Source of the DNA: Octopus vulgaris
Lineage: Eukaryota
Direction of reading: 5' to 3'
NCBI GenBank assembly: GCA_951406725.2
Contig: OX597816.1
Location: forward strand, 169,818,001-169,882,000
DNA: 64,000 bases
The notes beneath the pieces were generated by a model, which had not been told where the DNA came from, made no database searches, and saw nothing but the letters and a program-made list of their open reading frames with translations. The first letter of the stretch is position 1, and each line of letters starts with the position of its first letter. A program made the position numbers and the translations under genes. Positions 16,578-32,430 of the stretch are shown here, in pieces.

Positions 16578-16722
16578 CAGCCTTAAGAGAAGTCCACTTA
16601 AGCCAACAAACTTTCGATACAGATATCTTACTCGCTCGGGGAACTGTTTACTTTTCAAACCTGATGAGGTTAGCATTCGAATAGCAGCAACTAATAACGT
16701 CTACGAGCGAGCGATTACTGTG
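16578..16722 (+). CDS. Zinc metallopeptidase gene, first identifiable coding exon
   Basis: Pyrimidine tract plus TAG/CAG acceptor, GTAAGT donor, phase 2 to 0. Encodes SLKRSPLKPTNFRYRYLTRSGNCLLFKPDEVSIRIAATNNVYERAITV. Confidence 0.75.
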
Positions 16723-17154
16723 GTAAGTTATAAAATTATCGGGATAATAAAAATACAAGTAATTCAAATATACTAACTAATAACAGCAATAATAACTAAA
16801 TAGTTGCAATAATATTTTACGGGATGCACTTATGTGACGCCAGTTTACATACATAAAATTTCTCTGCAGCATCATATAATGTTATTGCTGCTGATGCAAA
16901 CGGCAGACCAACCAACGTACCAAATGACTTTAAATACTACATAAATATGTACACACTCACACACACACATATACATAGATGCATACACACACATGCACAC
17001 AAACACATACACACAGCACACACATATATATATATATATATATATATATACATAGATACATATACAAACATACACACACATTCAAACATACACACGAACA
17101 CATATACGACTCTCACCTACACGCAAAACAAAGAAATCGTAACATGTGTGTATA

Positions 17155-17303
17155 GGAGCACTCCGTCGGTTGCGACGACGAGGGTCCCAGCTGATACGAT
17201 CAACGGAACAACTTGCTCGTGAAATTAACGTGCAAGTGGCTGAGCACTCCACTGTCACATGTACCCTTAACGTAGTTCTCGGGGAGATTCAGCGTGACAC
17301 AGT
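17155..17303 (-). mobile_element. SINE family A 3' fragment
   Basis: Reverse complement of the 3' part of 21324-21706. Confidence 0.8.
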
Positions 17304-17436
17304 AACATGTGTGTATACATACATACAACATACATACATACATACATACATACATACATACATACATACATACACACATACATACATACATACACAGACA
17401 CACACACACACACACATATATATATATATATATATA

Positions 17437-17672
17437 AAGGCGGCGAGCTGGCAGGAAAGGTTAGCACGCCGGGCGAAATACGTGGCCGTATTTCGTCTGC
17501 CGTTACGTTCTGAGTTACAAATTCCGCCGAGGTCGACTTTGCCTTTCATCCTTTCGGGGTCGATAAATTAAGTACCAGTTGCGCACTGGGGTCGATGTAA
17601 TCGACTTAATCCGTTTGTCTGTCCTTGTTTGTTCTCTCTGTGTTTAGCCCCTTGTGGGTAGTAAAGAAATAT
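17437..17672 (+). mobile_element. SINE family C
   Basis: AAGGCGGCGAGCTGGCAG...GCCGAGGTCGACTTTGCCTTTCATCCTTTCGGGGTCGATAAATTAAGTACC...GTAAAGAAATA. Further copies at 19053, 33775 and 48088, with fragments at 1-75, 25655, 29205 and 54290. Confidence 0.85.
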
Positions 17673-17837
17673 ATATATATATATATATATTAATGCATAT
17701 ATATGTACGTAGTACATCTCCACACACACACACACACACACACACACACACACACACACTCACACACACAGTGTTTTTCTTTAACATCCTCAAACCGCTT
17801 TATATTTATTAATCATGATGACATTCCATTCGTGCAG

Positions 17838-17991
17838 ACATGTTTAACTCTTTCGAAGATTACTCAATACATGCCGAGAGAAGTGTTCGCGAATGTCTCA
17901 AAATCCCACGGCGTTGGTATCTTTACGTTAGCCGAAACGCTATCTGTATATCCAGAGAATGCTGATTTAGTTGACAGACCGGAGTGCTTTC
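17838..17991 (+). CDS. Zinc metallopeptidase gene, coding exon
   Basis: TGCAG acceptor, GTAAGT donor, phase 0 to 1. Encodes TCLTLSKITQYMPREVFANVSKSHGVGIFTLAETLSVYPENADLVDRPECF. Confidence 0.85.
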
Positions 17992-19052
17992 GTAAGTAAT
18001 CTGCATCATTCTATCTGATTATATAAAATTATATGTAAAAGCAAATGTTATTGTTTGATTTAGAAAAATATTAGTTAATAGTTCTTATTGTACCGTTCCG
18101 CCATTGTATTCTAATATCCACAAATTGAAATGTATCTATCATAACAGTTGGTAAGCTGCAGAAGCTGATAAAAGTAAAAAATTACAATACAGAATATTTC
18201 CACAAAATGATAAATATCTTTCATAATTATATACAAATATTATACTGAGTACAAGTGAGAATGATATGAAGCTTCCCTATTTGAAGAAAAAATACAAAAG
18301 CCACTGTTTTGCGTAGATTTATGATTCCAAACTATTTTTGAAGTTTTGTTGTTATTTTGCTTTTATCAGATATATTTTACAGAAATAAAGCAAAATCTAC
18401 TTAATCCGTTTTTATTTCAATAAGAATGTTGAAAATTGCTTAGTCGAAGAAACTGTCGCCCAAAAATCTGAATCTACTTATTTGAAATAATTATTAGAGT
18501 TTGTAAGACGTGAAGCGTGTGTTCTATAATTATAATAATAATTTTCTTTCTATAATTATGATTAGATAAAACAAGCATAAAATTAAGGAGAATGCTTTCA
18601 TGTATCTTATCAAATATTCAGTCATTTACGGATTTTGCTTATTTTACATAATTATATTCTTGCAAGAATGCATTCACTTGAATTATCAATTTAGATAATT
18701 GAATGTGAAGTTGTGTTTCTTTCATAGTACTTTTTTTTGCCGCAGGAAATATATAACAATGAACAACGCATTTCATGTAGCAGCTGACATAAACGAGCAA
18801 ATGTTTATTTTTTTGAATAGGATTTTCAAAAAGGTTATTGTATCCTTTGGTTTCAAAAATATAACATTGCTTGAGTATCATAACAAATAAAGTAGATAAA
18901 CTAAAATCATTACGAAAATATTTTTCTCGGTGTAAAGTGAGCGCAGAAGAGCAACAGACATACTTGCATGCAAACCGGGAACGCGATATGGGTTTACTTC
19001 CTCATTAAGCTTCTGTTACTTTAATTGCCCCGCTAATACCAAGGGCAACGAA

Positions 19053-29921: not shown

Positions 29922-30053
29922 AGCAGAAAATTCAACAAAATCTGTTACTCTGAGTTTCTCGTTGCCGTTCATCAGACAGTTTTTGCTAGCAAAAACTGTC
30001 TGATGAACGGCAACGAGAAACTCAGAGTAACAGATTTTGTTGAATTTTCTGCT
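29922..30053. repeat. 132-bp palindrome between (TA)n tracts
   Basis: Centre GCT|AGC at 29987/29988; arms are reverse complements. Unique sequence continues to ~30137. Confidence 0.95.
29990..30039 (+). ncRNA. Type-I minimal hammerhead ribozyme fold (mirror copy on - strand at 29936-29985)
   Basis: Stem I CAAAAACTGT/ACAGATTTTG; core CTGATGA (30000-30006); stem II CG(GCAA)CG with an A.A closing mismatch; GAAA (30017-30020); stem III ACT(cag)AGT; triplet GTA (30027-30029). Confidence 0.75.
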
Positions 30054-30532
30054 GCTTCAAATAAAGCATATTACTCTACCACTGGTATTTGAGTACTCTT
30101 TTTCCACCTTGTTTCACATTTATGTGTTTACTCCGGTATATATATATATATATATATATATATATAATATATATATATATAAATGAGATTTAGGATTAAA
30201 TCCAATTTTATAGTATAAATATATTATATTATATTATATTAAATTAGAGATAAAACCACTATTAGGCAAATCAAACAGTGAAAAACATAAGCCAATACAT
30301 AAAATTAATTTAAAATATAAAAGTTAAAAATAAAAAAATATTTAAATAATTTAAACTTATAAATTTTATATATATATACAAATATATATATATGTATGTA
30401 TGTATATTTTTATATTAATATATTATTTTAATTATTAATTAATTAATTAATTAATTAATTTAATTTATTTATCTATATATATATATATATATATATATAT
30501 GTGTGTGTGTGTGTGTGTGTGTGTGTGTATAC

Positions 30533-30822
30533 ACGGACTCGTGGTTGGGTGTTGCATTCACGGTCTAGTGATCGTGGCTCCAATTCCTGGATCGATTTGT
30601 GCGTTGTGTTCCTGACCAAAACACGTCATCTCGCGTTGCTCTGCGATCACTTTGACACCTGACGCCTGGTACACACTGCACCTATTCAGTCAAAGTGGAT
30701 TTAATAGAAAGAGTTAGCTAATATGAGACACGGGCATTTGATCCACTATAAACAAATCATTTTTGCACGTCGTTCGGGGGAAAAACTGAACGTTCATACG
30801 TCGTCTTCGATGGGAGAGGCCA
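30533..30822 (+). mobile_element. Diverged tRNA-derived SINE (fourth family)
   Basis: Degenerate A and B boxes followed by GCGTTGTGTTCCTGACCAAAACAC, similar to the family A head. Confidence 0.5.
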
Positions 30823-31370
30823 TCATACATATAATATTACTATTATCCCGATGTATGCTGTTCCTGAAGAGTATGACAGTATATCAGCATATGAGATTTG
30901 TGATATTGGTTTCAATCATTCTTCCAATACATTATTGGAATCGACATGTCTAATCGCAGTGTTTGTAATTAGTTATCTTGAGACATTGAAATATACTATA
31001 TGAGAATTTAACTCTAAGAATATTTAGTAACATTTCAGATAATTTAAGGAGACAAGAAATAAGTATGAAATGTTGGCATATTAATTTCACTTATATATTC
31101 TATAATAATGTAATAGTGATTGTCAAATGTTATCATCAGTCATTATAGGTGCATAGGTCTGTTCGTATTTCACTTTAATCAAACGAAACCAAATTGTTGT
31201 AAACTAACTAATTTCATTAAATTAATTATACCCCACTGCAAATAATGAGAACCTTCCCTCCCGTTCATTACGTATATATATGCAAAACGAAACGTGTTAT
31301 ATTACGAGCATAAATATATCCATACATGTACATTCATGTATACTCTCTTACATTCATATACATTCATGTA

Positions 31371-31779
31371 TACTCTCTTACTTGTTTCAGTCATTTGACT
31401 GTGGCCATGCTGGAGCACCACCTTTTAGTCGAGCAAATCGACCCCCAGCACTTATTCTTTGTAAGCCTAGTCCTTATTCTATCGGTCTCTTTTGCCGAAC
31501 CGCTAAGTAACGGGGACATAAACACACCAGCATCGGTTGTCAAGCAATGCTAAGAGGACAAACACAGACACATAAACACACACACGCATATATATATATA
31601 TATATATATATACATATATACGACGGGCTTCTTTCAGTTTCCGTCTACCAAATCCACTCACAAGGCTTTGGTCGGCCCGAGGCTATAGTAGAAGACACTT
31701 GCCCAAGGTGCCACGCAGTGGGACTGAACCCGGAACCATGTGGTTGGTAAAAAAAGCTACTTACCACACAGCCACTCCT
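31371..31779 (-). mobile_element. SINE family B
   Basis: Full-length copy. Confidence 0.9.
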
Positions 31780-32282
31780 AATTATTTTGATATTTTTTAT
31801 GAGTGTATTTTCTCCTTAAATTTTCCGAGATGTTGCTAAATATTCTTAGGAAGAGTTAGATTCACATACAGTATATTTCAATACCTCAAGCTAGTTAATT
31901 AGTAACATCAGTTCAAACTATTTGTAACACCGCAAGTAGTAACATCAGTTCAAATTATGCACTGAAAAATCCCATATGCTAATATCCTGTCATACGCTAC
32001 AAGCATTCTTTGAGATATTAGTAATATTTTATTCTGAAATGTGATAACGTTTGAGCGTAAAGCGTTATGCTCAAATTGAAACAGGATTCTTATGCAAGCC
32101 AATTAAATTCCCGTTTATAAAGTCATGAATATCAGAACAACCTCTTCAGTGCTAGGTATTTCCTTTTTTTTTTTAAATACAATAATTAAAAACAAACTGA
32201 TTTTTCTAAATTTTCTTGCAGAATAAATATCTAATATTGTATGTGCCTTTATTAATAGTAAAATTGTTTTCCCTTTGTTCAG

Positions 32283-32430
32283 ATGTAAAAATCAACGGAT
32301 TTGCTCGGATGAAATGAAAGCAAGACAGTTCCTTCGACGTCACGATCCGGGTATTTTTTATTGCCTGTCCTACGCGTTTACTGATGACCGTCCATGGCGA
32401 ATTTCGGGTCTTAAGCCTTGTATGAGATGA
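32283..32430 (+). CDS. Zinc metallopeptidase gene, last coding exon
   Basis: TTTGTTCAG acceptor, phase 2. Encodes (I)CKNQRICSDEMKARQFLRRHDPGIFYCLSYAFTDDRPWRISGLKPCMR*. AATAAA at ~32447 and ~32507. Confidence 0.85.

What the first reader, a model, noticed from the sequence alone, without database searches (positions are those of the whole stretch)
16578..32430. Intron-containing HExxH...E zinc peptidase with bacterial-type motif layout, largely missed by the ORF track
Seen: five exons splice in matching phases (2-0-1-0-2) to ~269 aa without stops, containing ENILTHEFAHLVH, LW...YAMENEYEYFA (Glu 38 residues after the second His) and a C-terminal FLRRHDP, with Cys clusters (CFQTCEGVCNNTC, CKNQRIC). 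Established: HExxH with a downstream EYFAE-like helix and a late DP motif is typical of gluzincin-type folds such as MtfA and anthrax lethal factor relatives. Inference: this is a secreted-type member of a mostly bacterial family with patchy animal distribution, possibly an old horizontal transfer that gained introns and disulfides, and a candidate salivary, digestive or defence enzyme. The usual E after YFA is V here.
Basis: partly seen in the sequence, partly recalled or inferred. Interest (0 to 1): 0.7.

Follow-up and report, generated by a model that had tools for sequence, protein, structure and literature searches.

The report
Self-plugged, bacterial-type mollusc zinc peptidase
This spliced octopus gene encodes an unstudied, likely secreted zinc peptidase of a family shared across molluscs, whose predicted fold is closest to bacterial Pro-Pro endopeptidases, which molluscs likely took from bacteria long ago, and which is predicted to keep itself switched off with its own proline-rich front end.

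Summary
The gene is real and longer than reported. It has seven coding exons: a sixth lies at window 7151-7202 and a signal-peptide exon about 54 kb upstream of the window. The six window exons match residues 17-302 of an annotated but uncharacterised Octopus vulgaris protein letter for letter. Transcript-type contigs support three of the four reported junctions. The model's best solved matches are Pro-Pro endopeptidases PPEP-2/3 (Z 13.9/13.1), ahead of anthrax lethal factor (10.0) and MtfA (8.1). The catalytic set H185-E186-H189-Y221-E228 is complete, so the 'V instead of E' is not a lost ligand. The gene is one of five octopus paralogues in a clade whose 11 named members are all molluscs (four classes). 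On a long-branch root the clade sits among bacterial-type proteins, apart from a second animal clade in deuterostomes (AU p=0.044). New here: a conserved X-X-Pro-Pro-Pro front end and a dibasic site before the domain; a complex model lays that front end in the active site (0.80 vs best control 0.17). Best reading: an old bacterial acquisition turned into a self-inhibited secreted proenzyme. A paralogue occurs in skin mucus; no salivary evidence. Activity and substrate are untested.

The parts
7151..7202 (+). Coding exon 2 (residues 16-33): end of the signal peptide and the G-V-A-P-P-P-L front end; PPP at 7165-7173. Exon 1 (signal peptide, residues 1-16) lies outside the window at G000:C3:169764243-169764288.
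16578..16722 (+). Coding exon 3 (residues 33-81): dibasic K36-R37 at 16585-16590, then the first strands of the catalytic domain
17838..17991 (+). Coding exon 4 (residues 82-133), with the first Cys (C131) of the four-Cys insert
   Evidence: (joint to next exon in 3 of 4 runs)
19569..19777 (+). Coding exon 5 (residues 133-202): C135/C139/C143, TFDGRKY, edge strand G155-T157, HEFAH zinc motif at 19724-19738
23287..23441 (+). Coding exon 6 (residues 203-254): catalytic Tyr221 (23341), third zinc ligand Glu228 (23362), Val232 (23374)
32283..32430 (+). Coding exon 7 (residues 254-302) with C255, C261, the DP motif, C300 and the stop; transcript-type contigs run on to about 32668
32949..32997 (+). 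Alternative 3' end used by annotated isoform P0008 (CAI9720415.1); end coordinate approximate; not covered by the contigs laid, and the tool skipped a repeat there

Best explanation
The gene encodes a 302-residue, likely secreted zinc endopeptidase with a predicted PPEP/lethal-factor (M34-type) fold and a complete catalytic set, likely made as a proenzyme whose own X-X-Pro-Pro-Pro front end is predicted to plug the active site until cut away, and likely descended from a bacterial gene acquired before molluscs diversified. Steps: (1) Shown: exon structure, splicing of three junctions, signal-type N-terminus, residues H185/E186/H189/Y221/E228, five paralogues in this genome, molluscan clade. (2) Predicted: fold; zinc held by H185, H189 and E228, with E186 as general base and Y221 stabilising the oxyanion, by residue match to PPEP-3; a disulfide-tied insert (C131-C143) where PPEPs have their S-loop. 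(3) Predicted: residues 16-25 lie in the cleft along the edge strand, with A20 in the S1' pocket and P21-P23 on the prime side. (4) Inferred: cleavage at K36-R37 by a convertase-type protease releases the plug, and the enzyme then cuts extracellular proteins, probably with prolines at P2'-P3', at mucus-covered surfaces. (5) Inferred: origin by old transfer from bacteria, separate from a second uptake in deuterostomes. Rough odds by step: active M34-type peptidase 0.85; self-plugged proenzyme 0.55; bacterial origin by transfer 0.65; mucosal role 0.35.
For: Fold: AF2 model pLDDT 91.7. VIA Z 13.9 (rmsd 3.3, 176 aligned) to PPEP-2 and 13.1 (3.8, 188) to PPEP-3, against 10.0 for lethal factor and 8.1 for the Klebsiella MtfA-type entry 3DL1 (the MtfA label is, not from the entry title). 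All 9 Foldseek hits at E<=0.001 are PPEP-2/3 chains. Residues: PPEP-3 H153/E154/H157/Y190/E197 (PMC12828418) align with H185/E186/H189/Y221/E228; the set is intact in 41 of 47 aligned members. Plug: PPP within 20 residues of the signal core in 10 of 33 members against 0.4 expected from shuffles, and 1 of 83 proteins outside the clade; on its own small exon in two further paralogues read here and present in a third. Dibasic site before the domain in 14 of 35 against 3.0 expected. ESMFold2 complex of residues 13-43 with 44-302 plus zinc: score 0.80, best of 3 controls 0.17; the mark was reached by 51 of 78 solved and 2 of 108 mismatched pairs; runs agree in at least 70% of contacts; partner pLDDT 49-50; A20 touches H185, E186, V153 and I182, the equivalents of PPEP-3's S1' residues. 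Two AF2 models show a beta-bridge two residues before the PPP and a local pLDDT rise. Secretion: two peptides (4 spectra) of the neighbouring paralogue LOC115209763 in O. vulgaris skin mucus (PMC10138644 Table S1).
Against: No activity was measured. The complex score may come from likeness to solved PPEP-peptide complexes; peptides and jobs with a riding ligand are outside the tool's calibration; the controls were unrelated, not proline-rich; the partner's pLDDT was only about 50 and it included six signal-peptide residues. PPP is absent from 23 of 33 members and the dibasic site from 21 of 35, and related sequences inflate both counts. The mollusc clade is only 27% identical to named bacterial proteins (best 71.6 bits, against 65.1 to the deuterostome type). 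The root rests on a long branch, and the AU test for separate origins is borderline (p=0.044). P0096, which looks eukaryotic (signal, Ser/Thr stalk, hydrophobic tail), branches first in the ingroup. Two peptides of this gene itself were not found in the mucus table, which was cut when stored. The octopus protein misses both Pfam cut-offs.
Confidence: 0.6

Rival explanations
1. It is a true Pro-Pro endopeptidase: it cuts between two prolines, and the PPP front end is its own cleavage site for self-activation.
For: Best fold match is to PPEPs. Four members carry x-P-P-P-V-P after the signal (P0028, P0042, P0052, P0112), which contains the P|PVP of the PPEP-1 and PPEP-2 sites VNP|PVP and PLP|PVP (PMC10413326, PMC8610288). 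The S1' residues V123/L150/H153 of PPEP-3 map to V153/I182/H185, and W120 to Y150.
Against: The S-loop aromatic (Y113 in PPEP-3, W103 in PPEP-1) maps by ungapped offset to C143, and H145 to Q177. The complex model puts V19-A20, not Pro-Pro, at the zinc. A PPEP-like domain need not cut Pro-Pro (CD1597; PMC12828418).
Confidence: 0.2
2. The front end is not an inhibitor: prolines after the signal peptide merely protect the N-terminus or act as a spacer, and the enzyme is active as secreted, perhaps as an aminopeptidase.
For: Many members lack PPP or the dibasic site. pLDDT of the segment is only 54-66. That prolines near the N-terminus protect secreted proteins, and that MtfA has aminopeptidase activity, are recalled and come from no call.
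Against: PPP is 25-fold over the shuffle expectation and recurs in distant subclades. Two methods point the same way: ESMFold2 places the segment in the cleft and AF2 gives a beta-bridge at the matching residues, though its partner strand is not shown.
Confidence: 0.25
3. Origin rival: the family was present in early eukaryotes or animals and was lost in most lineages, or it reached molluscs through a protist or a virus rather than directly from bacteria.
For: At least two animal clades exist. P0096 looks eukaryotic. P0085/P0089 carry the Cys insert yet come from long metagenome contigs. The mollusc branch is long and the AU test is borderline.
Against: The deuterostome type is 48% identical to named bacterial proteins and 26% to the mollusc type (216 vs 84 bits). 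The two animal clades are separated by bacterial branches. The loop motif of the mollusc type recurs in an RTX-bearing protein.
Confidence: 0.25
4. It is a salivary (venom) or digestive enzyme of cephalopods.
For: It is a secreted, disulfide-rich peptidase with five paralogues in a predator.
Against: The family is present in bivalves, limpets, abalone and chitons. The only protein detection found is in skin mucus, for a paralogue.
Confidence: 0.12

Closest known systems
Pro-Pro endopeptidases PPEP-1/2/3 (M34 clan; PDB 6FPC, 9G0J, 5A0P)
   Same: Single-domain secreted zincin with the same fold (Z 13.9/13.1). HExxH, Tyr seven residues before the third-ligand Glu, edge strand and S1' residues all match.
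   Different: 15-17% identity. A four-Cys insert sits at the S-loop, without the S-loop aromatic. It has an extra front segment with PPP and a dibasic site, and is an animal gene with introns. PPEPs are reported only from two Firmicutes orders (PMC8610288 highlights).
Anthrax lethal factor catalytic domain / Pfam ATLF (PF07737)
   Same: Same catalytic layout (H686, E687, H690, E735; PMC5668564); Z 10.0; Pfam E 1.3e-5.
   Different: 302 aa, one domain, none of the other lethal-factor domains; below the Pfam cut-off (25.4 vs 27.4 bits). Nothing here indicates a toxin.
MtfA / Peptidase_M90 (PF06167; PDB 3DL1)
   Same: HExxH plus downstream Glu; Pfam E 2e-4 for the octopus protein, and one relative (P0004) passes the cut-off.
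   Different: Weaker fold match (Z 8.1). MtfA is an intracellular regulator-binding protein (PMC13482132 listing; otherwise recalled), whereas this protein has a signal peptide.
Unnamed bacterial secreted peptidase family (Bacteroidota, Planctomycetota, Verrucomicrobiota, Myxococcota)
   Same: Full-length alignable relatives; shared ENxLC, HEFAH, W, YA, EY[FW]A and DP motifs.
   Different: No Cys insert (0 of 79 loci); PPP front end in 1 of 83; no NCBIfam family for either type.
Octopus HGT zinc metalloproteinases of Liu et al. 2018 (PMC6011040)
   Same: Bacterially derived zinc peptidases in octopus.
   Different: Their 12 accessions do not include XP_014767551. Their printed fragments look thermolysin-like by my reading (not tested), and their E<=1e-30 filter would miss this family (best E about 1e-17).

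Membership tests
M34-type gluzincins (PPEP / lethal-factor clan) | HExxH on the active-site helix | tested here: met
   H185-E186-x-x-H189 in helix 182-193
M34-type gluzincins (PPEP / lethal-factor clan) | Third zinc ligand Glu about 40 residues after the second His, with a catalytic Tyr seven residues before it | tested here: met
   E228 (+39) and Y221; PPEP-3 E197 (+40) and Y190
M34-type gluzincins (PPEP / lethal-factor clan) | Overall fold | tested here: met
   Predicted model: Z 13.9, rmsd 3.3, 176 aligned to 6FPC; the top eight rows are PPEPs, anthrax-toxin-family chains and 3DL1
M34-type gluzincins (PPEP / lethal-factor clan) | Zinc-dependent proteolysis | not testable with these tools
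   No assay
Pfam ATLF PF07737 | Gathering score 27.4 bits | tested here: not met
   25.4 bits for P0001, the 98% identical O. bimaculoides orthologue; P0006 itself was not run against Pfam
Pro-Pro endopeptidases (PPEP) | Cleavage between two prolines | not testable with these tools
   No assay; the model places V19-A20 at the zinc
Pro-Pro endopeptidases (PPEP) | S-loop aromatic (W103 in PPEP-1, Y113 in PPEP-3) | tested here: not met
   Maps to C143 of the Cys insert by offset from W120=Y150; sequence mapping only, no superposition
Pro-Pro endopeptidases (PPEP) | S1' pocket residues V123, L150, H153 | tested here: met
   V153, I182, H185
Pro-Pro endopeptidases (PPEP) | Diverting loop with His145 | tested here: inconclusive
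MtfA / Peptidase_M90 PF06167 | Gathering score 26.2 bits | tested here: not met
   21.4 bits for P0001; 28.7 for relative P0004
MtfA / Peptidase_M90 PF06167 | Mlc binding and aminopeptidase activity (recalled) | not testable with these tools
   The MtfA structure paper was not held
Anthrax lethal factor (toxin) | Multidomain chain with a protective-antigen-binding domain | tested here: not met
   302 aa single domain plus signal and short front segment
Horizontally acquired gene | Nested among bacterial homologues with support | tested here: inconclusive
   Nested at 95/85 with seven unnamed proteins, two RTX-bearing; long-branch root; no named donor
Horizontally acquired gene | Not contamination (introns, chromosome-scale contig, splicing, orthologues) | tested here: met

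The most novel reading that the evidence does not exclude
Animals took up PPEP-fold peptidases from bacteria at least twice. Molluscs rebuilt theirs, before their classes split, into a disulfide-tied proenzyme locked by a built-in proline-rich substrate mimic. Once unlocked in mucus it cuts P-P-V-P-type motifs such as those in bacterial adhesin stalks: the first animal enzymes with PPEP-like specificity, acting as anti-adhesion defence.
Probability: 0.12. Interest if true: 0.85.

Novelty: new variant of a known kind. Interest (0 to 1): 0.56.

Why it matters
The PPEP/lethal-factor clan is described from bacteria, and PPEPs from Firmicutes only. A multigene branch shared by cephalopods, bivalves, gastropods and chitons, with an added disulfide loop and a predicted self-inhibiting front end, would extend the clan to animals and add a zymogen mechanism; the one PPEP survey searched for 'propeptide' had 0 occurrences. 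It gives a concrete, testable case of old bacteria-to-animal transfer that identity-based screens missed, with an apparently separate uptake in deuterostomes. Proline-tolerant secreted peptidases are also of practical use. The gene model itself is not new, and activity, substrate and tissue are unmeasured, which caps the score.

Tried and rejected
Pfam on single exons: only the exon at 23287 hit (M90, E 4.7e-5). NCBIfam gave no family for 4 of 5 proteins; the fifth hit only through its RTX repeats. PDB by sequence gave nothing under E 0.01. Signal-peptide exon: not in the 30 kb next to the window, then found by pattern. The look-up of sequencing runs: no RNA holder listed on record, tissues not shown. 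The alternative 3' end at about 32950 had no cover, but the tool skipped a repeat there. Viral vector idea for P0085/P0089: four scans of viral contigs, two of metagenome contigs (59, 65), phage tblastn (87) and a BFVD fold search (121, 0 at E<=0.001) found no Cys-insert member and not their own contigs. The five weak viral hits are 60-70-residue matches; the three read are unrelated phage HExxH proteins. This is no evidence against the idea. 'V replaces a zinc ligand' was rejected. Contamination was rejected (introns, 182-Mb contig, paralogues sharing exon boundaries). Literature: ten full-text searches found no description of this family in molluscs; six accessions gave 0 papers; subscription journals and supplements are not covered by that search. 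The salivary-gland supplement of PMC7693380 gave 0 hits for five terms, weak because it may use other identifiers; the supplement of PMC12607849 held 393 characters. Earlier scan notes: nothing relevant. Two scripts failed on my own errors and one search had the last exon off by one base, corrected.

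
Full report
Observation. A search with one exon found an Octopus bimaculoides protein of 302 aa, whose cluster holds O. vulgaris CAI9720416.1 (P0006). That protein revealed a sixth exon at window 7151-7202; the six window exons give its residues 17-302 with 0 differences. The signal-peptide exon lies 60,862 nt before exon 2, outside the window. The gene is therefore annotated, as uncharacterised. Contigs from four runs of four studies bridge three junctions: one directly in 3 of 4 runs, one by loose ends in 4 of 4, one by an exact 155-nt gap in 4 of 4. 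The tool only guesses that these runs are RNA and gives no tissue.

Paralogues. The genome holds five loci: this one, one about 100 kb downstream, two on C4 and one elsewhere on C3. In the stretches fetched, the four others show the same five exon blocks of the catalytic domain, each with HExxH, Tyr and Glu. Against the neighbour, pS is 0.84 and pN 0.25 over 218 codons.

Fold and active site. The AF2 model (48 sequences, pLDDT 91.7) matches PPEP-2 and PPEP-3 best (Z 13.9 and 13.1), then lethal factor (10.0), Certhrax (8.8) and 3DL1 (8.1); Foldseek agrees. In PPEP-3 the ligands are H153, H157 and E197, the base E154 and the oxyanion Tyr Y190 (PMC12828418, passages and two sections read). The profile alignment puts these on H185, H189, E228, E186 and Y221. 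E197 is the Glu before YFA, so Val232 is not a lost ligand; the position is E in 28, V in 10, Q in 5 of 48 members, and the full set is intact in 41 of 47. C131, C135, C139 and C143 are present in 46-47 of 48 members and fall where PPEPs have the S-loop. In proteins outside the clade the C170 equivalent co-occurs with a C-terminal Cys (49 both, 76 neither, 24 discordant; not corrected for kinship), which suggests a C170-C300 bond.

The front end. After the signal, 10 of 33 clade members with a hydrophobic N-terminus carry PPP (0.4 expected from shuffles; 1 of 83 outside the clade). Four of the five octopus paralogues have it; it was not found in the stretch fetched for the fifth. A KR or RR lies within 16 residues before the first strand in 14 of 35 (3.0 expected; 2 rows skipped as too short); here it is K36-R37. 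ESMFold2 placed residues 16-25 in the cleft, score 0.80 against a best control of 0.17; the mark was reached by 51 of 78 solved and 2 of 108 mismatched pairs; run agreement was at least 70% and partner pLDDT 49-50. A20 contacts H185, E186, V153 and I182; V19 contacts E228 and the edge strand; P21 contacts V232 and Y221. I read this as V19-A20 at P1-P1' with prolines on the prime side. Both AF2 models show a beta-bridge two residues before the PPP. Solved PPEP-peptide complexes exist, so the pass may be memory, and peptides are outside the calibration. The signal cleavage after G18 is my reading by eye; convertase cleavage at dibasic sites is established knowledge, not tested here.

Distribution. 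A profile search found 2526 proteins at E<=0.001 and listed 150. Of 164 proteins then held, 151 went into a tree (6 near-duplicates and 7 short rows dropped); 53 form the Cys-insert clade. Eleven of the 53 have organism names, all molluscs: Octopus (2), Argonauta, Mytilus (2), Solemya, Haliotis, Patella, Aplysia and Liolophura (2). Eleven were looked up and have no name, and 31 were not looked up. Lottia appears as a best hit in a proteome table. The ESM Atlas cluster is 100% eukaryotic, mostly Mollusca. Among the other 98 rows, a 9-row clade holds Amphiura, Saccoglossus and Branchiostoma proteins; four members tested carry ShK domains, one also a fibrinogen domain. In GTDB, 590 of 600 stretches encode relatives; the best 80 are Bacteroidota 49, Planctomycetota 20 and four other phyla.

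Origin. In a 61-row careful tree (20 mollusc-type, 8 deuterostome-type, 18 named bacterial, 10 unnamed, 5 paralogous-domain outgroup; 216 columns), the mollusc type is 100/98 and lies in a 95/85 branch with seven unnamed proteins, while the deuterostome type (100/100) lies among named bacteria. Forcing the two animal groups together costs 24.75 log units, AU p=0.044; the grouping was chosen after the first tree was seen. Two of the seven neighbours carry RTX repeats, and one of these has TFDGRPWSEV, close to the octopus TFDGRKYSEV. Against a simple story: the root branch is long, no donor is named, P0096 looks eukaryotic, and P0085/P0089 and P0140 sit in the animal clades but come from long metagenome contigs.

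Function in the animal. The neighbouring paralogue LOC115209763 has two peptides in four spectra in O. vulgaris skin mucus (PMC10138644, Table S1 searched, cut when stored, plus main-text passages); one peptide spans an intron of that paralogue. Two peptides of this gene were not found there. No salivary or digestive evidence turned up. A role at mucus-covered surfaces is an inference from one paralogue.

Comparison and novelty. It works like an M34-type peptidase and meets the structural and residue criteria of that clan, but it is not filed as a PPEP (S-loop aromatic missing), as MtfA or as a lethal-factor toxin. Ten searches found no description of the family in molluscs (listed under Tried and rejected). 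The 2018 octopus HGT list lacks it (PMC6011040, whole text read; its supplements and the companion Gene paper not seen). PMC4729200 (passages) reports deuterostome genes shared with marine microbes; its tables were not read, so the deuterostome clade may be listed there. PMC8610288, PMC10413326, PMC5668564 and PMC3482391 were seen as passages; the MtfA paper was not available. Verdict: a real, annotated but unstudied gene; a new animal variant of a known bacterial peptidase clan; interest 0.56.

Noticed in passing
window 7675-7866 (-): Full-length U2 snRNA match (Rfam RF00004, 139 bits) inside intron 2 of the peptidase gene, on the opposite strand; gene or pseudogene not determined.
   Followed up: partly
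window about 36900-40350 (-): Fragmented Helitron: Helitron_like_N at 39787-40311 and PIF1 helicase at 37219-37605, broken by stops and frame changes.
   Followed up: partly
proteins P0114, P0138, P0160, P0076, P0151, P0157: A second animal clade of the same peptidase family (Amphiura, Saccoglossus, Branchiostoma); named members P0114 and P0138 are 44-48% identical to bacterial proteins; ShK in four tested, fibrinogen C in one. P0076 and P0160 have altered catalytic motifs.
   Followed up: partly
proteins P0085 and P0089 (JGI/IMG contigs of 32 and 49 kb): Cys-insert members from long metagenome contigs; P0085 has an N-terminal membrane anchor instead of a signal-plus-PPP front end. Origin (bacterium, protist or giant virus) unresolved.
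   Followed up: partly
protein P0096: Family member with signal, Ser/Thr-rich stalk and hydrophobic tail, resembling a GPI-anchored eukaryotic protein; possibly a third eukaryotic lineage.
   Followed up: no
protein P0091: Kelch-repeat N-terminus joined to the C-terminal half of a mollusc-type peptidase; probably an assembly chimera.
   Followed up: no
proteins P0071, P0084, P0158, P0048: Clade members, including a chiton and a Solemya protein, that have lost zinc ligands and are likely inactive.
   Followed up: no
window 19050-19280, 21323-21705, 26270-26675, 28575-28985, 31350-31780: SINE-like dispersed repeats in the introns; the first two draw very deep contig coverage.
   Followed up: no
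window 32386: G>C difference in one run (X5), changing a codon near the C-terminus; probably allelic.
   Followed up: no
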